From Heterodontus francisci (taxonomy: Eukaryota): DNA of 64,000 nucleotides. Shown here piece by piece: positions 1 to 57,034 of this stretch. Position 1 is the stretch's first letter. The number at the start of each line of letters is the position of its first letter. The stretch lies in NCBI RefSeq assembly GCF_036365525.1, contig NC_090376.1, forward strand, positions 57,934,559 through 57,998,558, given 5' to 3'. The translations under genes and the position numbers were made by a program. Below the pieces are notes generated by a model. That model searched no databases. It was given only the letters and a program-made list of their open reading frames with translations, and had not been told where the DNA came from.

Positions 1-899
1 AGATGTGGTTATCCCGAAGCTTAAGAATGTGCAGGCAGAGAGGGAATGGGTGACCTCCAGGCAGTAAAGGAGGACCAGGCAGGCAGTGCAGGAGTCCCCT
101 GAGTTGATCTCGATCTCAAACCAGTCTTAACTTCTAAATACTGGTGAGAGTGATGGCTCCTCTGGGGAGTGCAGCCAGAGCCAAGTCCATGGCACCATGG
201 CTGGCTCAGCTGTACAGGGGGGCAGAAGGAAGTTTGGGAAAGCATTAGTGATAAGGAATTCTATAGCTAGGGGAAACAGACAGGCTTTTCTGTGGCTGCA
301 GATGCAAATCCAGGATGGTATATTGCCTCCCTGGTGTCAGGGTCCAGGATGTTACTGAGCAGCTGCAGAGCACTCTGAGGGGGGGGGAGGAGAATGAACA
401 GCCAGTGGTTGTGGTCCATATTAGTACCGACATAGGCAGAAAGAGGGATGAGGTCCTGCAGACAGATTTTGGGGAAGTAGGAAAGAAACTAGCAAGCAGA
501 ACCTCAAAGGTAATAATCTCTGGATTACTTCCAGTGCCATGCGCTAGTGAGTATAGAAATAGGAGGATACAGCAGATGAATGCATGGCTAGAGAGATATT
601 ACAGGAGAGGCAGCTTTAGAATTCTAGGGCATTGGGACTGATTCTGGAGAAGATGGGACCTGTACAGGCCAGATAGTTTGCATCTGAAAAGAGCCGGGAA
701 TAATGTCCTTATGGGGTGATTTTGGGGACAGTTTAAGCTAACTTGGCAGGGGGATGGGAACCAGGATTTAACATTAGAGAGGAAAAATAAGGTGAACAAA
801 GAATTGGGAGAGACAAATAGCACTAGGGTAGGAAATGGTAAGATATTAGATGGGATCAGAGTAAGAGGGAATGTAATAATTTCTAAATTAGGTTGAATA

Positions 900-3800
900 A
901 AAACGTTAAAAATGAGGTTAGTCTAAGATATGGCAGAGCAGGTTGTGTATCTGGACTGCAGAATGTGAGATTTTGCGCAGGGTGAGACTGTCCCAACCAA
1001 ATATGTTTGCAGGAGATCTCTCCCTTTCGACTCTCTCTGGCTCAGAATCATTGAGGTGGATGCGAGTTAGAGAGACTCCAACACATAAAGAAGGGAGGAA
1101 TTTCTGGACAGTTATATCCAGAATACAGTCACACCCCAGAGGAAAACACAGATTTGGGAAAGGAAGCTTGTGACTGTTAGGGAGTTGGGAAGTGGGGATT
1201 AAGGAGAGGTTGAGAAGGAGGTCCCCCAGGCATTGGTCCTGTCCAATCGGTACGCTGTACATGCTACCTGTTAGGAAAAGGAGAAAGACTGCAGGGAGGA
1301 CACCGTGACTCACAGGCTGTTTAAGGTGGTGGTGGGGTGGGGGTGGGGGGGAGCAGAATAGTGGCAGTAATAGGAGACTCTGTAATTAGGGGCATAAATA
1401 TCGTCCTCTTCAGCCAAGAGTGAGAATCCCGAAGGGCATGTTGTCTACCTGATGCCAGCCAGGATAAGGGATATCTCACGGCGACTGGAGAAAAACTTGA
1501 AAAGGTGAGGGGAGTAAATCCAGTTGTTGTGGTCGATGTTGGAACAAACGACATAGACAGCAACAGGGAGGAGGTCCTGCTGAAAGAGTATCAGGAAGGA
1601 GGCTCTAAATTAAAAAGCAGGACCTCGAGGGTAAGTGTCTCTGGATTATTGCTCGAGCCAAGTGCAAATTTGCATAGGAGCAGACAGATCAAGGGAATTA
1701 ACACATGGCTAAAGGGCTGATGTGGGAAAGAGGGATTCCTTTTCATGGGACTCAAGATCCACCTGAACCGGGATGAGGGGACCCGTGTCCTAGCAGAAAG
1801 AGTAAATAGGGAGGTGGCGAAGGCTTTAAACGAGTAAGATTGGGGGAGGGATATACAAGAAACGGAAGAAGCCTAAATGTAAACAAAACAGGGAAGGAGA
1901 GCATAGGAAAGAATAACGTAAGGGATAGCTAGGGAATAAATAGAGTTATAGAACAGGAGACTGAAGAGATAGTTAAGCATAAAGTGAAAGGAAATCTTAT
2001 TAAAAATGAGTAAAAATGTCTGTACAGCAATGCACACTGTGTCCATAATAAAACAGGGGAGCTGGAGGCAATTATGCATTGGGAGGAACCAGACATAATA
2101 GGGATTACTGAGACATGGGACTGAATTTTCCGAGCAAATGGGAGGCGGGGCGCCTGGTAAAATAATGATGGAAGGCGTCAGAATGGAAGTCCGATGCCTT
2201 GATTATCAGTTCCGGATTTTCTGAAGGGCGGCCGGCATGGCAGGAGGAACAGCCGCTTCGATGTGGTGGCAAGGTAATTAAGCCTGTTAATCAGAGAATT
2301 GACTCAATTTTTATGGGGCTAATGGAATTTTATAAGGGGCGCATGGGGATCAAGGGACTTCGAAGCTTCACCAGTTATATGGAGACGGTGTTGGGGCAGA
2401 GGTCAAGACTGGTCACAGACAGCCATTGGTGGTGAGAGCCTTGTACTGAGGGAAGGGTGTGACAGCGTGGGCATTGCCATTGACACCCAGGAGCAGTTTA
2501 GAAATATGTTTGGGTGCCAGGGATTGGCTGGCACAGTGCCAATCATCAGGTGGCACACCAGGGACTGTAGGAAGGCTGGGTGGGGAGGCGTGGAGAGTCT
2601 GGGGGAAGAAGGCTTTGTAACCTCTGTGCAGAGACTTGCCATGGGCCTCATCCAGTCAGGCTTCGGGACTTCCTGTGAGGAGGACCATGTGCACGCTGCT
2701 TTCTCCTCCGACGAGGAGCTGGAAGTAGATGACAAGCAGGCGTGAGATGAAGAGGCAGCTCAATGACCGCTACCAAGTCGAGAGGCAAGACACAGAAGGG
2801 AGGCTAGGGAGACATTTCAGTTGAAGCTGCTTGTATGATCTGAGCAATCCAATAAAATGCCAGGTTTCTGCAGCCCTGATGCCTACCGCTTCATTGTACT
2901 CAAAGTATGTCTGCACACAAGACATGACACAGTGTCATGGGGATGGCATTGACCTCATGCACTGTAGTGTCTTCCAGCATTCCCTTTAAGGGAGCCAGGT
3001 GCCTTGAAGGCCAGAGATCGCAAGATAAGTAGAGGTCTAACACTTGTCCTGCCACATTCCATTTTTATTTGGGGCCGTTCCAAATTGTACGTCCCCTTTA
3101 CAATACAAAGTAATCATCTGCGAACCTTGAGTGCAGCTAGGTGCTCAGCTTAAATCTTTTACAGGTGCTACTACGAGATGCTCCCCTGCACCGTCAGATG
3201 AGGTGGAGGCAGGCTGCTGATCCTGCTGCCCTTTTGCGGTCAATGGCCTTGGTGGCCATCCTCTGGATGCCTGAGGCCTGGAGGGCCTTGGCAAACTGAG
3301 AGCCTCCTGCACTGCTGCAGGGCTCACCTCCATCATTGGTCCACTTGAGGTTCAGGGGTCACTGTTGAGGGTCTGAGGGGGCGGCAGCCACTCCAGGCGC
3401 ACCCTGAGAGGAGCCTGAAGTTGCATCAGCCTGCCACTCCTCTTCCCTTTGAAGACACACTTGAACCTTCCTGCTCACCTGAGGTGCTTGAGGACCTGAC
3501 AGTAAATCCATGCGCCTCTCCCCCATCTTGCCCATCCACTGGTCCATGGAACAAATGGAAGTGGCGATGTCATGCAGGTTCGAGTATGTCTCCTGCATCC
3601 ACTAAGTGACCTTCTGCATTTGAGTTGCCAAGCTCTGAATGGAGGAAGCCAAGCTCGCGCACACCAGAGGCAAGGCTTCACTGATGGCCTGGATGGACTC
3701 CTCCATTGCCCACGCCAGGGTGTGCGTAGCCTCTGGCAGCTCCGCCTAATGTCCCCTGACCTCACACTGCAGATCCAGCAGCTGACTCCAGTGGCATGTC

Positions 3801-17600: not shown

Positions 17601-18572
17601 ATATCTCCATCCTCAATGATGAAGGAGCCCAGCACATCAGTGCAAAAGAAAAGGCTGAAGCATTTGTATCCATCTTCAGCCAGAAGTGCCAAGTGGATGT
17701 TCCATCTCGGCCTCCTACTGAAGTCCCCATCATCACAGATGCCAGTCTTCAGCCAATCCGATTTACTCCACGTGCTACCAAGAAACGGCTGAAGGCACTG
17801 GATACTGCAAAGGCTATGGGCCCTGACAACATTTTGGTAATACTACTGAAGACTTCTGCTCCAGAACTAGCCATGCCCCTAGCCAAGCTGTTCCAGTATA
17901 GCTACAACACTTGCATCTACCTGGCAATATGGAAAATTGCCCAGGTATGTCCTGTGCACAAAAGGCAGGACAAATCTAACCTGGCCAATTACCTCCCTTT
18001 TCATTCTACTCTTGATCATCAGCAAAATGATACGAACATACGAATTAGGAGCAGGAGTAGGCCACTCGACCCTTCGAGCTGGCTCTGCCATTCAATAAGT
18101 TTATGGCTGAGCTGATTATTCCACATTTCCACCTACCCCCTTGCTTATCAAGAATTCACCACCTCTCCCTTAAAAATATTCAGACTCTGCTTCCACCGCC
18201 TTTTGAGGAAGAGAATTCCAAAGACTGACGACCCTCTGAGAGACAAAACTTCTCCTCATCTCTGTCTTAAATAGGTGACCCTTTTTTTAAACAGTGACCC
18301 CGAGTTCTAGATTCTCCCAGAAGGGGAAACATCCTTTCCACATCAATCCTGTCAAGACCCCTCAGGATCTCATATGTTTCAATCAAGTTGCCTCTTACTC
18401 TTCTAAATTCCAGCGGATACAAGCCTAGCCTGTCCAATCTTTCCTCATAAGACAGCCCGCCCATTCCAGGTATTAGTCTCGTAAACATTCTTTGTACTGC
18501 CTCCAATGCATTCACATCCTTCCTTAAATATCATGTGATTGGTTAAAAACTTGGGAATTTAGAATAGTGGGA

Positions 18573-19502
18573 ATGGAGGTTAAGGCAGTTGAATGTTCCT
18601 CCTGCAGAATGTGGGAGGTAAGGGTCGCCAAGGGTGTCCCTGCTGACTGCATCTGCGGGAAGTGCACCCAGCTCCAGCTCCTCGAGGACCGCGTTAGGGA
18701 ACTGGAGCTGGAGGAACTTCGGATCATTCGGGAGGCGGAGGGGATTATTGAGAGGAGTTATCGGGAGGCAGTCACACCTCAGGTAAAAGAAGAAGGTAGA
18801 TGGGTTACCGTCAGGGGAAGGAGAGGGAACCAGCAGGCAGTGCAGGGATCCCCTGTGGCCGTTTCCCTCAACAACAGGTATACTGTTTTGGATACTGTTG
18901 GGGGAGACGACTTACCAGGGGTAGGCAATGGGATACAGGTCTCTGGCGCAGAGTCTGTCCCTGTTGCTCAGAAGGGAAGGGGTAAGAGGAGCAGAGCATT
19001 AGTCATTGGGGACTCCATAGTTAGGGGAACAGATAGGAGGTTTTGTGGGAACGAGAGAGACTCACGGTTGGTGTGTTGCCTCCCAGGTGCCAGGGTACGT
19101 GATGTCTCGGATCGTGTTTTTGGGATCCTCAAGGGGGAGGGGGAGCAGCCCCAAGTCGTGGTACACATAGGCACCAACGACATAGGTAGGAAGACAGATG
19201 GGGATTTAAGGCAGAAATTCAGGGAGCTAGGGTGGAAGCTTAGAGCGAGAACAAACAGAGTTGTTATCTCTGGGTTGTTGCCCGTGCCACGTGCTAGCGA
19301 AGTGAGGAATAGGGAGAGAGAGGAGTTGAACACGCGGCTGCAGGGATGGTGTAGGAGGGAGGGTTTTGGTTTCCTGGATAATTGGGGCTCTTTCTGGGGT
19401 AGGTGGGACCTCTACAAACAGGATGGTCTTCACCTGAACCAGAGGGGTACCAATATCCTGGGGGGGAGATTTGCTAGTGCTCTTCGGGGGGGTTTAAACT
19501 AA
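18573..19502 (+). CDS. CR1 ORF1 protein (zinc finger/leucine zipper plus SGNH esterase)
   Basis: Open frame from ATG 18573: CSSCRMW...CGKC, a leucine-rich coil, then GDS, GTND and DGLH esterase blocks; ends GGLN-stop. Confidence 0.9.
   Translation: MEVKAVECSSCRMWEVRVAKGVPADCICGKCTQLQLLEDRVRELELEELRIIREAEGIIERSYREAVTPQVKEEGRWVTVRGRRGNQQAVQGSPVAVSLNNRYTVLDTVGGDDLPGVGNGIQVSGAESVPVAQKGRGKRSRALVIGDSIVRGTDRRFCGNERDSRLVCCLPGARVRDVSDRVFGILKGEGEQPQVVVHIGTNDIGRKTDGDLRQKFRELGWKLRARTNRVVISGLLPVPRASEVRNREREELNTRLQGWCRREGFGFLDNWGSFWGRWDLYKQDGLHLNQRGTNILGGRFASALRGGLN
19493..19499 (+). promoter_or_regulatory. Candidate -1 ribosomal frameshift slippery site T_TTA_AAC
   Basis: X_XXY_YYZ heptamer in ORF1 phase directly before the TAA. 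The -1 frame is open into the ORF2 endonuclease N-terminus with no AUG. The same heptamer occurs at 1825-1831 (+) and 24999-25005 (-). Confidence 0.6.
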
Positions 19503-22386
19503 TTCAGCAGGGGGATGGAAACCTAAATTGTAGTTCCAGTGTGCAGGATGTTGAGAGTAGTGAGGTCAGGGATAAGGTTATAAGGACACAAGAGGGCACT
19601 GGCAAGCAAGAGCGTGGTTTAAAATGTGTCCACTTCAAGGCCAGGAGCATCCGGAATAAGGTGGGTGAGCTTGCAGCATGGGTTGGTACCTGAGATCTCG
19701 ATGTTGTGGCCATTTCAGAGACATGGGTAGAGCAGGGACAGGAATGGATGTTGCGGGTTCCGGGATTTAGATGTTTCACTAAGAACAGAGAAGATGGTAA
19801 AAGAGGGGGGGGGGTGTGGCATGGTTAATCAAGGAAAGTATTACAGCGGCAGAAAGGACGTTTGAGGACTCGTCTACTGAGGTAGTCTGGGCCGAGGTTA
19901 GAAACAGGAGAGGAGAGGTCACCCTGTTGGGAGTTTTCTATAGACCTCCAAATAGTTCCAGAGATGTAGAGGAAAGGATAGCAAAGATGATTCTTGACAG
20001 GAGCGAGAGTAACAGGGTAGTGGTTATGGGGGACTTTAACTTTCCAAATATTGACTGGAAATACTATAGTTCGAGTACTTTAGACGGGTCTGTTTTTGTC
20101 CAGTGTGTGCAGGAGGGTTTTCTGACACAGTATGTAGACAGGCCAACCAGGGGCGATGCCACATTGGATTTGGTACTGGGTAATGAACCCGGCCAGGTGT
20201 TAGATTTAGAAGTTGGTGAGCACTTTGGTGATAGTGATCACAATTCGGTTAGGTTTACCTTAGCGATGGGCAGGGACAGGCATATACAGCAGGGCAAGAA
20301 TTATAGCTGGGGGAAAGGAAATTATGATGCGATTAGGCAAGATTTAGGATGCGTAGGATGGGGAAGGAAACTGCAGGGGATGGGAACAATCGAAATGTGG
20401 AGCTTATTCAAGGAGCAGCTACTGCATGTCCTTGATAAGTATGTACCTGTCAGGCAGGGAGGAAGTTGTCGAGCGAGGGAGCCGTGGTTTACTAAAGAGG
20501 TTGAAGAGCTTGTCAAGAGGAAGAAGAAGGCTTATGTTAGGATGAGACGTGAAGGCTCAGTTAGGGCGCTTGAGAGTTACAAGCTAGCCAGGAAGGATCT
20601 AAAGGGAGTGATAAGAAGAGCAAGGAGAGGACACGAGAAGTCATTGGCGGATAGGATCAAAGAAAACCCTAAGGCTTTCTATAGGTATATCAGGAATAAA
20701 AGAATGACTAGAGATAGGTTAGGGCCAATCAAGGATAGTAGTGGGAAGTTGTGTGTGGAATCGGAGGAGATAGGGGAAGTGTTAAATGAATATTTTTCGT
20801 CAGTATTTACAGTGGAGAAAGAAAATGTTGTCGAGGAGAATACTGAGATACAGACTACTAGGCTAGATGGGATTGAGGTTCACAAGGAGGAGGTGTTAGC
20901 AATTTTGGAAAGTGTGAAAATAGATAAGTCCCCTGGGCCAGATGGGATTTATCCTAGGATTCTCTGGGAAGCCAGGAAGGAGATTGCAGAGCCTTTGTCC
21001 TTGATTTTTATGTCGTCATTGTCGACAGGAATAGTGCCGGAAGACTGGAGGATAGCAAATGTTGTCCCCTTGTTCAAGAAGGGGAGTAGGGACAGCCCTG
21101 GTAATTATAGACCTGTGAGCCTTACTTCGGTTGTGGGTAAAATGTTGGAAAAGGTTATAAGAGATAGGATTTATAATCATCTTGAAAAGAATAAGTTCAT
21201 TAGAGATAGTCAGCACGGTTTTGTGAAGGGTAGGTCGTGCCTCACAAACCTTATTGAGTTTTTCGAGAAGGTGACCAAACAGGTGGATGAGGGTAAAGCA
21301 GTGGATGTGGTGTATATGGATTTCAGTAAGGCGTTTGATAAAGTTCCCCACAGTAGGCTATTGCAGAAAATACAGAAGTATGGGATTGAAGGTGAATTAG
21401 TGCTTTGGATCAGAAATTGGCGAGCTGAAAGAAGACAGAGGGTGGTGGTTGATGGTAAATGTTCATCCTGGAGTATAGTTTCTAGTGGTGTACCGCAAGG
21501 ATCTGTTTTGGGGCCACTGCTGTTTGTCATTTTTATAAATGACCTGGATGAGGGTGTAGAAGGGTGGGTTAGTAAATTTGCGGATGACACGAAGGTCGGA
21601 GGAGTTGTGGATAGTTCCGAAGGATGTTGTAGGTTACAGATGGACATAGATAGGCTGCAGAGCTGGGCTGAGAGATGGCAAATGGAGTTTAATGCGGAAA
21701 AGTGTGAGGTGATTCCCTTCGGAAGGAGTAACAGGATTGCAGAATACTGGGCTAATGGGAAGATTCTTGGTAGTGTAGATGAGCAGAGAGATCTTGGTGT
21801 CCAGGTACATAAATCCCTGAAAGTTGCCACCCAGGTTAATAGAGCTGTTAAGAAGGCATATGGTGTGTTAGCTTTTATTAGTAGGGGGATCGAGTTTAGG
21901 AGCCACGAGGTCATGCTGCAGCTGTACAGAACTCTGGTGCGGCCGCACCTGGAGTATTGCGTGCAGTTCTGGTCACCGCATTATAGGAAGGATGTGGAAG
22001 CTTTGGAAAGGGTGCAGAGGAGATTTACTAGGATGTTGCCTGGTATGGAGGGAAGGTCTTACGAGGAAAGGCTGAGGGACTTGAGGTTGTTTTCGTTAGA
22101 GAGAAGGAGGAGAAGAGGTGACTTAATAGAGACATATAAGATAATCAGAGGGTTGGACAGGGTGGATAGTGAGAGCCTTTTTCCTCGGATGGTGATGGCA
22201 AACATGAGGGGACATAGCTTTAAGTTGAGGGGTGATAGATATAGGACAGATGTCAGAGGTAGTTTCTTTACACAGAGAGTAGTAGGGGCGTGGAACGCCC
22301 TGCCTGCAACAGTAGTAGACTCGCCAACTTTAAGGGCATTTAAGTGGTCATTGGATAGACATATGGATGAAAATGGAATAGTGTAG
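19493..22386 (+). pseudogene. CR1 ORF2 (APE endonuclease plus reverse transcriptase), disabled near the N-terminus
   Basis: 856 open codons from 19816 (YRPP, GDFN, DSDH, GVPQGSVLGP, FADD). Upstream, the -1 frame reads LKCVHFKARSIRNK...ISETW, with a TGA at 19691-19693 and a frame change in the G10 run at 19805-19814. Confidence 0.9.
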
Positions 22387-25300
22387 GTCAGATGGTTTCA
22401 CAGGTCGGCGCAACATCGAGGGCTGAAGGGCCTGTACAGCGCTGTAATGTTCTATGTTCTAAGGAGACCAGTATTGTACACAGAACTCCAGATGTAGTCT
22501 CACCAATGTCCTGTATAGCTGAAGCATAACCTCCCTACTTTTGTATTCAATTCCTGTCACGATAAATGATAACATTCTATTAGCTTTCCTAATTATGTGC
22601 TGTACCTGCATACTAACCTTTTGCGCTTCATGTACTAGGACAGTCTGCATCTCAGAGTTCTGCAATCTCTTACCATTTAAATAATATGCTTCTTTCTTAT
22701 TCTTCTTGCCAAAGTGGACAATTTCACACTTTCTCACATTATACTCCATTTCCTGGTCTTTGCCCACTCACTTAACCTATCTATATCCCTTTGTAGTCCC
22801 CTTATGTCCTCTTCACAAGTTACTTTCCTACCTATCTTTGTGTCATCAGCAAATTCAGCAACCATTCCTTCGATCCTTTCATCTAAGTCATTTATATAAA
22901 TTGTAAAAAGTTGAGGCTCCAGCACAGATCCCTATGGCACACCACTCATTACATCTTGCCAAGCAGAAAGTGACCCATTTATGCCCACCGTCTTGTTTCT
23001 TGTTAGCAAGCCAATCTTCTATCATGCCAATATGTTACCCACTACACCACAAGCTTTTATTTTCTGCAATAACCTTTGATGTAGCACCTTATCAAATGCC
23101 TTCTGGAAATCTCAGTACAATACATCCACTGGTTCCCCTTTATCCATAGCACATGTAACTCCCTCAAAGAACTCCAATAAATTGGTTAAACATGATTTCC
23201 CTTTCACAAAACCATGTTGACTCTGCCAGATTGCCTTGAATTTTTCTAAATGCCCTGCTATAATGACTTTAATAATAGCTTCGAACATTTTCCCTAAGAC
23301 AGATATTAAGCTGACTGGTTTGTAGGTTCCTGCTTTCTGTCTTCCTCTCTTTTTGAATAAAGGAGTTACATTTGCTATTTTCCAATTTAATGGAACCTTC
23401 CCCGAATCTAGGGAATTTTGGAAAATTAAAACTAACGCATCAACTATCTCACTAGCCACTTCCTCTAACATCCTAGGATGAAGTCCATCAGGACCCCGGG
23501 ACTTGTCAGCCCGCAGCTCCAACAGTTTGTTCAGTACCACTTCCCTGGTGATACTAATTTTCTTGAGTTCCTCCCTTCCTTCCATTTCCTGACTTACAGG
23601 TAATACTGGGATGTTACTTGTATCTTCAATAGTGAAGACCGATGCAAAATATCTGTTCAATTCATCTGTCATCTCCTTATCATCCATTATTAATTCCCCA
23701 GACTCACTTTCTATAGGAACAATGCTCACTGGTTAACTCTTTTCTTTTTAAAATATCTATAGAAACTCTTACTAGCTGTCTTTGTATTTCTAGCTAGCTT
23801 TCTCTCTTACTTTAATTTTACCTTCCTTATCAATCTTTTAGTCATTCTTTGCTGTTTTTTATATTCTGTCCAATCTTCTGACCTGCCTCCCATCTTTGCG
23901 CAATTACATGCTTTTTCTTTAAGTTTGATACTATCTTTAACTGTTTTAGTTAACCATGGATGGCGGGACCCAGCCTTGGAATTTTTCTTTCTCGTTGAAA
24001 TGTATCTATTCTGTGTATTCTGAAATATCCCCTTAAATGTCTGCCACTACATCTCCATTGACCTCTCCCTTAACCTGATATGCCAGTTCACTTTAGCTAG
24101 CTCTGCTTTCATGCCCTCATAATTGCCCTTTTTAAGTTTAAAATACAAGGCTTGGACCCACTCTTCTCTCCTTCAAACTGAATGTAAAATTCAATCAATA
24201 CCTAGGGGCACTTTAACTATGAGGTCATTAATTAATCCTATCTCATTGCACAACACCAGGTCTAGTACAGCCTGGTCTCTGGTTGGCTACAGAACGTATT
24301 GTTCCAAGAAATTATCCTGAAAACATTCTATGTACTCCTCATCTAGGCTACCTCTGCCCATCTAATTTTTCCAATCTATATGTAGGTTAAAATCCCCCAT
24401 AATTATCGCTGTACCTTTCTGACAAGCTGCCATTATTTCTTCCTTTATACCCCATCGTACAGTGTGGTTAATGTTGGGTGGCCTGCACACCACCCCCACA
24501 AATGACTTCTTGCCTTTCTGATTTCTCATCTCTACTCAAACTGCTTCTACATCCTGGTCTCCTGAACTTAGGTCATCCCTCTCTATTCCGCTAATACCAT
24601 CATTAATTAACAGACTACGCCTCCACCTTTTCCTAGCTTCCTGTCCTTCCTAAATGCCATGTACTCTTCAATATTCAGGTCCCAATCTATGTCAGCCTGC
24701 AGCCATGTCTCTGTAATGGTTATCAGATCGCACTTATTTATTTCTATTTGCGCTCCCAGTTCATCTGTTTTGTTTTGAATGTTACTTGCATTCAGATATG
24801 GAGCCTTTAGTTTTGTCCTTTTATTATTTTTGTAACCTCTAGCCTTATCTGTTGATTTACTCTTAGATTTGTATGCTCTGTCCCTTCCTGTCACAGTCTG
24901 TTTATAATTTCCCATATTAATACCTTTCTCTCTTGCCTTGTCTCTACTCCTTGATTTACTATATCTTCCCAAATTTGATCCCTTGCCCCCACTATTCAGT
25001 TTAAAACCCTCTCTACTTCCTTAGTTATGCGGCTCACTAGAACACTGGCCCAGCACAGTTCAGGTGTAGACCATCCCAACAGTACAGCCACCACTTTCCC
25101 CAGTACTGCTGCCAGTGCCCCACGAACCAGAACCCATTTCTACCACACCAGTCCTTGAGCCATGCATTAATTTCTCTAATCTTATTTGCCCTATTCCAAT
25201 TTGCATGTGGCTGAGGTAATAATCCAGAGATTATTACCTTTGAGGTTCTGCTTCTTAATTTGGCACCTAGTTCCTCATACTGACTATGCAGAATCTCTTT

Positions 25301-26534: not shown

Positions 26535-26900
26535 CCGCTCCCACCGTGCTTTTCTCTCTTGCTCTGTCTATCTCCGGCTCTGGGCTTTTGGTGCACTTTT
26601 TAAACCTCTGTTCCCACCGTGCTCCTCTCTCTTGCTCTGTCTGTCTCTGGTCTCTGACTCTGGGCTCTTGGCGCACTTTTTAAACCTCCGCTCCCACTGT
26701 GCTCCTCGCTCTCTTGTTCTGTCTGTCTCTGGTCTCTGACTCTGGGCTCTTGGCGCACTTTTTAAACCTCCGCTCCCACTGTGCTCCTCGCTCTCTTGTT
26801 CTGTCTGTCTCCAGTCTCTGACTCTGGGCTGTTGGCGCATTTTTTAAACCTCCACTCCCACCTAGCTGCTCTCTCTCTTGCTCTGAGTGTCTCCAGTCTC
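26535..26900 (-). repeat. 80-82 bp tandem monomer array (about 4.5 copies) forming the CR1 5' UTR
   Basis: The unit anchor G(C/T)GCA(C/T)TTTTTAAACCTC recurs at 26591, 26671, 26753 and 26835; the array ends at the element's target-site duplication. Confidence 0.9.
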
Positions 26901-53050: not shown

Positions 53051-53636
53051 CTTAACTAAATTCAGCAGCATGTGAATGTAGATCCTGCAGCAAGATTAAA
53101 CAAAATTTAGTTATCTCAGTCACAATTTAAAAATAGATCTAAAATGCTGCAGAAAAATAGCACTAAACCAGTAGCCTTTGTGCATATTTAACTGATTAAA
53201 GGAAGTTTACAAACTCGCTGAGTCCCAGTGATTGCTATAATTTAACACCTTCTGTCTCAGCTGAGCCAATTAGGAGTTAAGAGGTAGCTCAATATTGAGA
53301 GGGTTATTTTGGTGACAGGGTGAAAACAGATGCTAAAAGTCACACCTGTTTGAAAGTTTGGTTTTAGAATGCAATTTTGGTTCTAATTGATGATTACCAT
53401 AATTTGAACTTACCTGGAGGTGCGAAAACAGAGACACACCTGCAGTTTAACACTCGAGTGCTGATTTCGACACAATTTTGTGGAGCAGTCTTTGTGGACT
53501 GCGTTCATTGGGGGAATAAATTGGATGACCCCAGAAACCAGGCACAGGGATCATGATGTGTGATTACTCATTCAATGCAATGCAGGTAGTAAGGCCTCTT
53601 TGTGGTGTCTGCTCATTATCATGATTTTGTTTGGTG

Positions 53637-56600
53637 TATGGCTCGGTGACGTCTTCTGCGGAAAAACACCTTTGACCACCGGTCCATCAGGCAGTGGTCT
53701 GCACGGAATGTCCTCAAGGCCCTACGGGAAAAGGAAACGGTGGATCCTGTCGGATGGTTCCCCGAGCAGACCGTCAAAGTCATTTGGCGGAATGCCTCAT
53801 CACCAGAACTTTCAAACAAGCACCAAGACGTAGCTTGGCTGGTGGTGAGAAGGGCCCTCCCCGTCAGATCCTTCATGCACACCCGAAGTCTCGCCCCCTC
53901 CGCACAGTGCCCCCGCGTTGGCTGTGGTGGGGAAGAGACGGTCGCCCACCTCCTCCTGGAATGTGCCTTTGCAAAGCAGGTGTGGAAAGAGATGCAGTGG
54001 TTTTTGTCAAGGTTCATCCCAAGCAGCTCTGTAACACAGGAGTCTGTGCTCTACGGGCTGTTCCCAGGGACGCACACCGAGACAAACATCAACTGCTGCT
54101 GGAGGACTATCAATTCGGTGAAAGACGCCCTTTGGTCTGCCCGAAACTTGCTGGTCTTCCAGCGCAAAGAGTTGTCCACCACCGAATGTTGCAGACTGGC
54201 ACATTCCAAGGTCCAGGACTACGTGCTGAGGGACGCACTAAAGCTTGGGGCAGCCGCAGCAAAGGCTCAATGGGGAAAGACCACAGTGTAAGGTTCCCCC
54301 ACCAAGCTGGACTGAGGGGCTGGAACCATGGGAAGCCCCTCGAACTGTATCGTTAATATTCTCAATTGCTGTAAATGTAAAACTGTAATTGACATGACAA
54401 TTGTGAAACGGAAGGGTTGGGAAGAAACTCATGACATTATTGAAAGAAACTGATCTCTTTTGCAATGTTTGTATTTTTTCGTGCTGTTTGGAAACTGTTT
54501 GGCAATGTAATTTTTACAGATTTTTATGAATAAAGTATATTTTGGGAAAAAAAAATGGCTCGGTGACGTCTTCGCAGTCCAACTTACTAAGGATCAGCAA
54601 ATCCTTTTATGCTGGGCTGTATGACGCGAAGCCCACAGACAGCAGAGCCTCCCAGTCCTTCCTGTCATCTATCACAGAGGTCTTAGATGACAGCAGGAGG
54701 GAGAGACTGGACAAGCCGCTAACTCTGGATGAGCTGACAAAGGCCGTCGAGACCTTCGAGACGAGTAAAACTCCCGGAAGTGACGGCTTACCGGTCGAGT
54801 TGTACTCGGCCCTATGGGACTGGGTCGGCCCGGACCTGCTGGAAGTATACGAGAGTATGCTCCTGGCTGGCAGCATGTCAGAATCCATGAGGAAAGGCAT
54901 CATCACCCTCATTTACAAGCTGAAGGTGAGAGGGCAGAAATCAGAAATTGGCGGCCCATCTCACTGCTTAATGTTGACAACAAGATTCTGTCCAAAGTCA
55001 TAGCCAGTCGAGTCAAGTCTGCTCTGGATTTGGTGATCCACCCCGATCAGACCTGTACTGTACCCGGCAGGAAGATCTCTGATAGTCTCGCGCTACTCAG
55101 GGATACGATCGCCTACGTACGGGACAGGAGGGTGGACGCATACCTCATCAGCCTGGACCAGGAGAAGCTTTTGACAGGATATCGCAGACCTACATGATGG
55201 ACGTGCTTTCCAAAATGGGGTTTGGGGAGGGAATCTGCAATTGGATCAAACTGCTCTACACAAACATCAGTAGCGCAGTCTCAATCAATGGATGGGAATC
55301 GGAAAGTTTCCCGATCCAATCTGGAGTCAGACAGGGCTGTCCTCTCTCCCCGGTCTTGTTTGTTTGCTGTATTGAACCCTTTGCTGAGTCTATTAGGAAG
55401 GATGCAAGCATAAGAGGGGTGACAATCCCAGGCAGCGGAGGCACTCAGGTTAAAACCGCCCTATACATGGATGACGTCGCCATCTTCTGCTCGGATCTGC
55501 TGTCTGTGCGCAGACTGATGAGCATCTGCGACCAGTTCGAACTGGCCTCGGGAGCCAAAGTTAACCACGGCAAGAGTGAGGCCATGTTCTTTGGGAACTG
55601 GGCTGACCGATCCTTTGTCCCCTTCACCGTCAGGTCAGACTACCTGAAGGTGCTGGGGATATGGTTCGGAAGGGCCGGGGCGTGCACCAAAATCTGGGAG
55701 GAGCGAGTAGCCAAGGTACAACAAAAGTTGAGCATGTGGAGGCAGCGATCTCTTACCATTGTGGGTTTGAACCTGGTCATCAGGTGCGAGGCGCTCACGT
55801 TGTTGCTGTACGTGGCGCAGGTCTGGCCCATATCCCACTCCTGCGCTGTGGCGGTCACCCGAGCCATTTTCCGCTTCATCTGGGGATCTAAAATGGACAC
55901 GATGTTCAAACCTCTGGATAAGGGCGGGAAAAACGTACCCAACGTGGCCCTCATCCTGATGACCACCTTCGTGTGCAGCTGCATCAAGCTGTGTGTAGAC
56001 CTCCAGTACGCAAACTCCAAGTGTTGAGGTTCTATCTGTCCCCGGTGTTGCGAAGGATGGGCCTGGTCACATTGCCGCGGAACGCTCCATGCAGTTGGAC
56101 CGTGCCGTACCACCTATCCTTCGTGGAGCAGTTTCTGCGGGAAAACACCTTTGACCACCAATCCATCAGGCAGTGGTCTGCACGGAATGTCTTCAAGGCC
56201 CTACGGAAAAGGAGACGGTGGATCCTGTCGGATGGTTACCCGAGCAGACCGCCAAAGTCATTTAGCAGAATGCCTCATCACCAGAACTTTCAAACAAGCA
56301 CCAAGATGTAGCTTGGCTGGTGGTGAGAAGAGCCATCCCTGTCAGATCCTTCCTGCACGCCCGAAGTCTCGCCCCCTCTGCGCAATGCCTCCGCGGTGGC
56401 TGTGGTGGGGAAGAGACGGTTGCCCACCTCCTCCTGGAATGTGTCTTTGCAAAGCAGGTGTGGAAAGAGATGTAGTGGTTTTTTGTCGAGGTTCATCCCA
56501 AGCAGCTCTGTAACACAGGAGTCTGTGCTCGACGGGCTGTTCCCAGGGACGCACACCGAGACAAACATCAACTGCTGCTGGAGGACTATCAATTCGGTGA

Positions 56601-57034
56601 AAGACACCCTTTGGTCTGCCCAAAACTTGTTGGTCTTCCAACGCAAAGTGTTGTCCACCACCGAATGTTGCAGACTGGCACATTCCAAGGTCCAGGACTA
56701 CGTGCTGAGGGACGCACTAAAGCTTGGGGCAGCCGCAGCAAAGGCTCAATGGGGAAAGACCGCTGTGTAAGGTCCCCCCACCAAGCTGAACTGAGGGGCT
56801 GGATCCATGGGAAACCCCTCAAACTGTATCGGGAAAATTTTGTGTGCTGTAAATGTAAAAATGTAATTGGCATGACAAATGTGAAATGGAAGGGTTGTGA
56901 AGCAACTCAGGATTGTATTGAAGGAAACTGATCACGTATGCACTGTTTGTATTTTTTGGTGCTGTTTGAAACTGTTTGGCAATGTAATTTTTATAGATTT
57001 TTATGAAAAGTATATTTTGGAAATAAAAAAAAAA
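53637..57034 (+). mobile_element. 5'-truncated Tx1-clade LINE (outer, older copy)
   Basis: KTPGSDGLPVELY, NWRPISLLNVD, GVRQGCPLSP, YMDD and a C-terminal zinc finger; poly(A) at ~57025-57034; duplication GATTTTGTTTGGTG at 53623-53636 and 57035-57048; several frameshifts. Confidence 0.9.
53657..54554 (+). mobile_element. 5'-truncated Tx1-clade LINE (inner, younger copy)
   Basis: Open ORF 53740..54291 with CPRVGCGGEETVAHLLLEC; AATAAA plus poly(A); 19-bp duplication ATGGCTCGGTGACGTCTTC at 53638-53656 and 54555-54573. Confidence 0.9.

What the first reader, a model, noticed from the sequence alone, without database searches (positions are those of the whole stretch)
19480..19730. CR1 LINEs appear to use a coronavirus-type U_UUA_AAC -1 frameshift to make an ORF1-ORF2 fusion
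Seen: ORF1 of the young CR1 ends GGT TTA AAC TAA, so TTTAAAC (19493-19499) is in canonical X_XXY_YYZ phase. The -1 frame reads LIQQGDGNLNCSSS...ERGLKCVHFKARSIRNKVGELAAW straight into the endonuclease, with no AUG before the first endonuclease motifs. The heptamer is in the same phase in two otherwise divergent CR1 families: GTT TTA AAC TGA at 24999-25005 (minus; -1 frame open into LNASNIQNK...ITETW, although this linker has one internal AUG) and GCT TTA AAC at 1825-1831. A decayed TTTAAGC lies at ~732-738. The preceding codon varies (Gly/Val/Ala) but its third base stays T, Leu-Asn is always TTA AAC, and a G-run follows about 8-10 nt downstream. Known: UUUAAAC is the coronavirus ORF1a/1b slippery site, and L1 ORF2 is made by reinitiation instead. 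Inference: these LINEs make a Gag-Pol-like esterase-endonuclease-RT fusion by programmed frameshifting. Overlapping CR1 ORFs may already have been noted in the literature, so novelty needs checking.
Basis: partly seen in the sequence, partly recalled or inferred. Interest (0 to 1): 0.82.

Follow-up and report, generated by a model that had tools for sequence, protein, structure and literature searches.

The report
Ribosomal frameshift signal in CR1 LINEs
An abundant vertebrate jumping gene (a CR1 LINE) ends its first gene on a virus-style slippery sequence, and its second gene continues one base back, often with no start codon, so ribosomes likely slip back one base and make a fused protein, unlike the restart mechanism described for human L1.

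Summary
Observation confirmed, interpretation well supported, not yet shown experimentally. The CR1 at 18529-22461 ends ORF1 with GGT TTA AAC TAA; ORF2 continues in the -1 frame, and in intact sister copies its first Met lies after endonuclease motif II. In this genome 76 of 79 junctions located without using the motif carry T_TTA_AAC; across 10 lineage representatives Leu/Asn are always TTA/AAC while nearby Leu codons vary. [quoted passage not shown] With U_UUA_AAC these are the four heptamers that PMC5009743 names among the most shifty. Against: no conserved hairpin or pseudoknot follows, only a G-rich motif; some families have a linker Met; the window copy is broken. A -1 shift is stated for Dictyostelium TRE elements; ten searches found none for CR1, but the primary CR1 papers were unreadable. 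The scan noted this before on two other genomes.

The parts
18529..22461 (+). CR1 LINE copy (98.3% identical to sister copy L238 over 3939 columns)
   Evidence: blastn; Pfam
18573..19502 (+). ORF1, 309 aa, Cys-rich N-terminus and SGNH/GDSL esterase domain; ends ...RGGLN-stop
   Evidence: (Lipase_GDSL_2, E 1e-13)
19475..19477 (+). last stop of the -1 frame upstream; confines any shift to the last 6 codon pairs of ORF1
19490..19496 (+). upstream in-phase heptamer G_GGT_TTA (tandem site, only in lineages ending GLN)
19493..19499 (+). slippery heptamer T_TTA_AAC (last two sense codons of ORF1)
19500..19502 (+). ORF1 stop TAA directly after the heptamer
19510..19518 (+). conserved G-rich motif at +11 to +19 after the heptamer; candidate stimulator (inferred)
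   Evidence: column counts; G4Hunter-type score
19493..19630 (+). -1 frame linker of 46 codons, free of stops and of Met, leading into endonuclease motif I
19493..22386 (+). ORF2 (APE endonuclease + RT) in the -1 frame; broken in this copy (TGA 19691-19693, frame change in G run 19805-19814), 961 codons open in sister copy L238
24999..25005 (-). same heptamer plus TGA in a second CR1 family (GTT TTA AAC TGA)
1825..1831 (+). same heptamer in a third, older CR1 family (GCT TTA AAC; stop decayed in this copy)
732..738 (+). decayed heptamer TTTAAGC plus TAA and G motif at the end of a fourth ORF1 remnant

Best explanation
The last two codons of CR1 ORF1 form a canonical X_XXY_YYZ slippery heptamer with ORF2 in the -1 frame, so a minority of ribosomes likely slip back one base and make an esterase-endonuclease-reverse transcriptase fusion while most stop and release ORF1p. 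Shown by sequence: heptamer, phase, narrow overlap, open linker, no conserved AUG, heptamer swaps between lineages. Inferred: tandem slippage of tRNA-Leu and tRNA-Asn (UUA AAC to UUU AAA), giving the junction ...RGGLN-LIQQGDG...; a high ORF1p to fusion ratio; no cleavage, since Pfam shows no protease. Least certain: the stimulator. In vertebrate-type lineages it is probably the G-rich motif at +11 to +19 (a protein-bound G tract or a non-canonical G-quadruplex), perhaps helped by the adjacent stop. One lineage that lacks the motif (L171) has a hairpin 7 nt downstream instead.
For: (1) Own genome, junctions anchored on the esterase D-x-x-H-L motif and on endonuclease motif I, not on the heptamer: 138 calls in 136 of 210 loci, 92 distinct contexts, 79 with the ORF1 stop 26 codons after the Asp; 76 of 79 TTTAAAC, 69 of 79 in -1 phase, 60 of 79 with a stop-free linker, linker lengths 129-216 nt. 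(2) Ten lineage representatives: Leu TTA 10/10, Asn AAC 10/10, preceding codon Gly/Ser/Thr/Ala/Val with third base T 10/10. The invariant or near-invariant Leu codons at -24, -22 and -14 use 2 to 4 synonyms and never TTA; TTA is 40 of 273 Leu codons in ORF1 bodies. (3) A metagenome pattern that held only the esterase motif gave 20 loci. In-phase heptamers with ORF2 at -1: T_TTA_AAC (L158, L159, L170), G_GGA_AAC (L168, L171; L174 contig ends), A_AAA_AAC (L163, L164, L172, L175), G_GGT_TTT plus T_TTT_TTA (L177). A strict test found a heptamer in the overlap in 23 of 24 junctions and 11 of 12 metagenomic ones; background 6 of 3357 in-phase positions, 0.37 junctions expected. The four types need at least 3 changes on an endonuclease tree, with ORF1 identities of 24-38% between types. 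[quoted passage not shown] (5) First Met of the -1 frame lies after the motif II Glu in L238 (86 vs 76), L239, L163, L164, L172, L175 and L177. (6) In the A_AAA_AAC group the ORF1 stop is 11 codons beyond the heptamer; in L171 ORF1 has a long added tail yet ends on the heptamer. (7) Protein level: 41 of 45 ORF1 homologues with the motif near their end finish in LN, as do turtle, lizard and swallow proteins.
Against: No experiment and no ribosome data. No conserved downstream structure: MFE z between -1.7 and +1.7 in 18 of 19 representatives (L171 -3.4; L033 was folded from 4 nt upstream of its site); pseudoknot scores beat all shuffles in 2 of 19 only; no Rfam match; no shared long-range partner for the G motif. 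A Met lies in 25 of 60 open linkers, and one family has a TAATG stop-start overlap in the -1 frame. L160 has G_GGG_TTT, one base from canonical; L166 and L167 are decayed or unreadable. Lineages are related, so the counts are not independent events. Many more distant esterase ORF1s end in other residues (38 of 90); their DNA was not seen.
Confidence: 0.85

Rival explanations
1. Termination-reinitiation as in L1 and SART1: ribosomes stop at the ORF1 stop and restart on ORF2 at a nearby AUG or non-AUG codon, giving a free ORF2p; the heptamer is incidental.
For: Reinitiation is the described route for L1 and SART1 (passages of PMC5972666; PMC2881922). One family here has TAATG in the -1 frame; 25 of 60 open linkers hold a Met. 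That L1 ORF2 tolerates loss of its AUG is recalled; the paper was not held.
Against: It needs neither a fixed -1 phase nor a heptamer, and cannot explain swaps among four shifty heptamers. The codons at the stop (CTA ATT, CTA GTT, CTG AAT, CTA GGA) share no start codon. In the A_AAA_AAC group the heptamer sits 11 codons before the stop. It may still act beside the shift in the TAATG family.
Confidence: 0.08
2. ORF2 is read from a spliced RNA that uses the AG just before the G run as acceptor and joins an upstream AUG.
For: CAG|G or AAG|G precedes the G run in many lineages.
Against: No pyrimidine tract; no AG at that place in L242, L245 or L246. None of the 5 joints listed in four public runs has GT..AG ends or lands at 19503-19520, and contigs cross the junction unspliced (contigs of other organisms, RNA status only guessed, so weak). 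It does not explain the heptamer.
Confidence: 0.03
3. Protein-level constraint: Leu-Asn is needed at the esterase C-terminus and Phe-Lys-Leu plus Gly-x-Gly in the overlapping frame, so the DNA looks invariant without any slippage.
For: Overlapping frames do freeze synonymous sites; LN is nearly invariant in vertebrate ORF1.
Against: It presumes that the -1 frame is translated from upstream of the ORF1 stop, which needs the shift. The residues change (LN, GN, KN, GF; FKL, GKL, KKP, GFF) while the X_XXY_YYZ form stays.
Confidence: 0.02
4. Transcriptional slippage: RNA polymerase adds a base at the run, so some RNAs carry the frames fused.
For: A_AAA_AAC holds six A; G runs flank the site. Two RefSeq models from a stingray read through the junction in frame.
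Against: T_TTA_AAC and G_GGA_AAC have runs of three only, and codon phase would not matter for polymerase slippage. No insertion at 19490-19502 is listed among the 6 indels.
Confidence: 0.02

Closest known systems
Coronavirus ORF1a/1b -1 frameshift (IBV U_UUA_AAC, named in PMC5009743)
   Same: Identical heptamer in the same phase; the downstream frame encodes the polymerase.
   Different: No pseudoknot or stable hairpin follows; a stop follows at once and a G-rich motif lies at +11 to +19; host is a chromosomal non-LTR retrotransposon.
Dictyostelium TRE5-A / TRE3-A non-LTR retrotransposons
   Same: APE-type LINEs stated to require a -1 frameshift for ORF2 (figure legend of PMC5911963; primary papers not seen).
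   Different: Amoebal, tRNA-gene-targeting elements with another ORF1; I did not compare their junction sequence.
Retroviral gag-pol and PEG10 -1 frameshifts
   Same: Structural ORF fused to an RT-bearing ORF by -1 slippage at low rate (ALV-E passage). G_GGA_AAC as the PEG10 site is recalled.
   Different: LTR lineage, Gag and protease present, structured stimulators; here an SGNH esterase ORF1 and no protease domain by Pfam.
L1 and SART1 ORF2 translation by termination-reinitiation
   Same: Bicistronic LINE RNA in which ORF2 depends on ORF1 translation; one family here has a TAATG overlap.
   Different: Those make a separate ORF2p from a spacer or a UAAUG; here frames overlap at a conserved slippery site and most lineages lack the AUG.
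Arterivirus nsp2 protein-stimulated frameshift (nsp1beta + PCBP)
   Same: Frameshifting stimulated in trans by proteins; a short unstructured motif about 10 nt downstream is recalled.
   Different: That motif is C-rich and the main shift -2 (recalled); here it is G-rich, the shift -1, and no binding protein is known.

Membership tests
CR1 LINE with esterase ORF1 | ORF1 with SGNH esterase domain | tested here: met
   Pfam Lipase_GDSL_2 E 1e-13; PMC13343379 passage on esterase ORF1 in vertebrate CR1
CR1 LINE with esterase ORF1 | ORF2 with APE endonuclease and RT | tested here: met
   Exo_endo_phos, Exo_endo_phos_2, RVT_1
CR1 LINE with esterase ORF1 | RT falls in the CR1 clade on a tree with reference elements | not tested
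   Assigned from architecture and from like junctions in rows labelled CR1 in the supplement of PMC13343379; clade of the metagenomic relatives not fixed
Programmed -1 ribosomal frameshift | X_XXY_YYZ heptamer in phase inside the ORF overlap | tested here: met
   23 of 24 junctions, 0.37 expected
Programmed -1 ribosomal frameshift | Downstream ORF in -1 frame, open from the heptamer, without a conserved start | tested here: met
Programmed -1 ribosomal frameshift | Nucleotide-level conservation or compensatory change of the heptamer | tested here: met
Programmed -1 ribosomal frameshift | Pseudoknot or stem-loop 5-9 nt downstream (classical type) | tested here: not met
   exception L171, possibly L158
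Programmed -1 ribosomal frameshift | Measured frameshift or transframe protein | not testable with these tools
   needs reporter, ribosome profiling or mass spectrometry
SART1-type UAAUG translational coupling | Conserved overlapping stop-start | tested here: not met
   TAATG at the ORF1 stop in 1 of 22 representatives (L240)

The most novel reading that the evidence does not exclude
Esterase-type CR1 LINEs across jawed vertebrates, and their distant relatives, make reverse transcriptase only as an ORF1-ORF2 fusion by -1 frameshifting, and in the vertebrate lineages the shift is driven by a short G tract (bound protein or G-quadruplex) rather than by a hairpin or pseudoknot: an ancient, genome-abundant class of structure-free frameshift signal.
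Probability: 0.45. Interest if true: 0.9.

Novelty: new variant of a known kind. Interest (0 to 1): 0.8.

Why it matters
How LINEs translate ORF2 is called an open question (PMC3894237), and the reviews read give reinitiation as the route. CR1 is the dominant retrotransposon group in most vertebrates (abstract of PMC13343379). If CR1 uses -1 frameshifting, its RT is made tethered to the ORF1 esterase at a set ratio, a retrovirus-like logic in a non-LTR element that would offer a physical route to RNP assembly. ORF2 models that start at the first Met would then cut off endonuclease motifs I and II. A roughly 130-nt cassette makes the question directly testable. The 2016 review says natural G-quadruplex stimulators were anticipated but not known; this G tract is a candidate.

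Tried and rejected
Local hairpin or pseudoknot: none conserved; Rfam blank. Long-range partner of the G motif in 20 junctions with their elements: best duplexes differ between families. A strict two-tier G-quadruplex pattern within 40 nt was found in 10 of 20 junctions only, though the G score sits at the 71st-99.8th percentile of each element; unresolved. Viral contigs: no ORF1 relative; the six motif hits L151-L156 were not examined. Prokaryote genomes: one weak hit, L157, not examined. Longer homologues: 1 among 298 candidates, weak evidence on natural fusions. Sequencing runs: no RNA holder listed on record. Supplement of PMC4316615: the 4 hits lie in ORF2 3' parts, and one file could not be searched. 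The look-up of contigs by protein was closed, so amniote junction DNA was seen only as published consensus rows. Dropped before the strict count: metagenomic L161, L162, L173 (same family as L159/L170, heptamer seen), L165, L169 (same family, broken near the site), L166, L167 (decayed or cut), L176 (unrelated low-complexity).
Full report
Setting. The window lies in a 6.0-Gb genome whose ORF1 homologues are closest to shark and ray proteins, so the host is probably a cartilaginous fish (inferred). The element at 18529-22461 is a young LINE, 98.3% identical to a sister copy. ORF1 (18573-19502) holds an SGNH esterase; ORF2 holds an APE endonuclease and RT; Pfam shows no protease.

Observation. 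ORF1 ends GGG GGT TTA AAC TAA. The -1 frame is closed by a stop at 19475-19477, opens across the last six codon pairs and runs 46 codons into endonuclease motif I without Met. The window copy is itself dead: TGA at 19691, a frame change in the G run at 19805-19814, and an altered motif I. In the 30 best copies of the family the junction is intact in the 29 that my script placed correctly (L024 has an upstream indel), and the first Met of the -1 frame comes after the ETW motif. In L238 the -1 frame is open for 961 codons, the Pfam endonuclease profile starts at residue 47, the motif II Glu is residue 76 and the first Met residue 86. A scanning start at that Met would lose two catalytic motifs.

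Conservation in this genome. Seven searches gave 210 loci (best-scoring copies only, so not a census of families). A caller anchored on the esterase motif and on motif I made 138 calls in 136 loci. Of 92 distinct contexts, 79 have the ORF1 stop 26 codons after the Asp: 76 TTTAAAC, three one-base variants; stops TAA 34, TAG 34, TGA 11; phase -1 in 69; linker stop-free in 60, with lengths from 129 to 216 nt; a Met in 25 of those 60. Copies decay neutrally, so the test of selection is between lineages. In 10 hand-picked representatives the last codons are TTA 10/10 and AAC 10/10, and the codon before is Gly, Ser, Thr, Ala or Val, always ending in T. Leu at -24, -22 and -14 uses several synonyms and never TTA. 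G is fixed at +11, +13, +18 and +19. Two other third positions (-9, -4) are also invariant, so shared descent accounts for part of this.

Across vertebrates. 41 of 45 homologous ORF1 proteins with the motif near their end finish in LN, from sharks, rays and a turtle; a chimaera protein does too. Representatives named as turtle, lizard and swallow end RALN. In Supplementary Table 2 of PMC13343379, 22 of 23 hits for heptamer plus stop were shown. By eye 18 are ORF1/ORF2 junctions, in rows whose labels I read as alligator, crocodile, bearded dragon, bullfrog, coelacanth, bowfin, a teleost, chimaera, sharks and rays; 4 are not. These rows were selected by the motif, cut at 400 characters and not phased, so they show spread, not frequency.

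The decisive comparison. Of 90 representative proteins with the motif near their end, 43 finish in LN and 9 in GN (the query profile favoured LN). A metagenome scan with a pattern that held only the esterase motif gave 20 loci, 19 of them true ORF1s; hosts unknown. [quoted passage not shown] In 12 own-genome and 12 metagenomic junctions a strict X_XXY_YYZ lies in the overlap in 23 of 24, against 6 of 3357 positions in ORF1 bodies, or 0.37 expected. The own-genome representatives had been picked after their junctions were seen; the metagenomic ones were fetched blind (11 of 12, 0.26 expected), with eight loci left out as listed. The exception, L160, is one base from G_GGT_TTT. The four types need at least three changes on an endonuclease tree of 13 rows (deep branches weakly supported). 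To go from T_TTA to G_GGA to A_AAA, bases in two codons must change together and the peptides change in both frames; only slipperiness is kept. The review PMC5009743 lists these same four among the most shifty heptamers for mammalian ribosomes.

Mechanism. Most ribosomes end at the stop and release ORF1p. Some likely slip -1 with Leu and Asn tRNAs on UUA AAC and continue ...GGLN-LIQQGDG... into a fusion of about 1270 residues (309 plus 959). Lineages ending GLN have a second site, G_GGT_TTA, one codon earlier. The stimulator is unresolved: no conserved hairpin, pseudoknot, Rfam family or long-range partner. A G-rich motif at fixed distance is shared by the own-genome lineages and by L158, L159, L170 and L168; it scores high for G-quadruplex tendency but fits a strict two-tier pattern in 10 of 20 junctions only. 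It is absent from L171, L177 and the A_AAA_AAC group. L171 has a hairpin 7 nt downstream (z -3.4). A bound protein or non-canonical G structure is my best guess.

Rivals. Reinitiation explains the linker Mets and the one TAATG family but not the phase or the heptamer swaps. Splicing finds no support in four runs, which are contigs of guessed RNA status from other organisms. Protein constraint and polymerase slippage fit poorly.

Literature. Ten searches listed no paper whose title or abstract proposes frameshifting for CR1. Seen as term passages: PMC5009743 (first 300,000 of 449,034 characters; 'CR1' 0), PMC3894237 ('frameshift' 0), PMC13343379 ('frameshift' 0, plus supplement hits), PMC2881922 ('frameshift' 0), PMC5972666, PMC5911963, PMC5006619, PMC3905857, PMC4255032, PMC11835228 (first half), PMC4316615 (supplement only, one file unsearched). 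PMC5911963 states that TRE5-A and TRE3-A require a -1 frameshift, so the idea is not new for LINEs as a class. Kojima 2005, Alisch 2006 and Kapitonov and Jurka 2003 were not held; Haas 1997/2001 and Kajikawa 1997 (recalled) were not looked up and could mention the overlap. Two earlier notes of this scan report the same reading on other genomes; they are not independent evidence, and the first gave me the TRE lead.

Verdict. A real, strongly conserved signal; programmed -1 frameshifting is likely (0.85); canonical heptamer, non-canonical 3' context; untested at the bench.

Noticed in passing
window 19490-19499: Two overlapping in-phase heptamers, G_GGT_TTA then T_TTA_AAC, in lineages ending GLN; L177 likewise has G_GGT_TTT then T_TTT_TTA.
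   Followed up: partly
L240:1750-1765 (G000:C2), family of L091-L120: TAATG stop-start overlap in the -1 frame directly after the heptamer, as in SART1; both routes may be open in this family.
   Followed up: partly
P0025, P0234 (Hypanus sabinus RefSeq models): Gene models read ORF1 into ORF2 in frame exactly at the slip site (…REG-FKL…, …RGG-FKL…); probably copies with an indel; one is named hydroxyacid oxidase 2 isoform X1.
   Followed up: no
L171 (minus strand): ORF1 carries a low-complexity tail of about 125 residues yet still ends on G_GGA_AAC TAG; a hairpin replaces the G motif.
   Followed up: partly
P0007, P0074: CR1 ORF1 proteins labelled as a Pseudomonas aeruginosa SGNH hydrolase (likely contamination) and as 'Replicase polyprotein 1a' of Varanus (likely misannotation).
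   Followed up: no
P0142, P0160, P0197, P0201, P0206, P0209: Esterases with DGLHP instead of DGLHL end in varied residues; possibly L2-type elements without this signal, a useful negative control.
   Followed up: no
window 53600-56800: ORF pieces of another non-LTR element type with RT and a C-terminal Cys motif, Tx1/L1-like by eye.
   Followed up: no
window 26599-26849: TTTAAAC recurs four times at about 82-bp spacing in a tandem array upstream of the minus-strand CR1; may be the 5' repeat array of that element.
   Followed up: no
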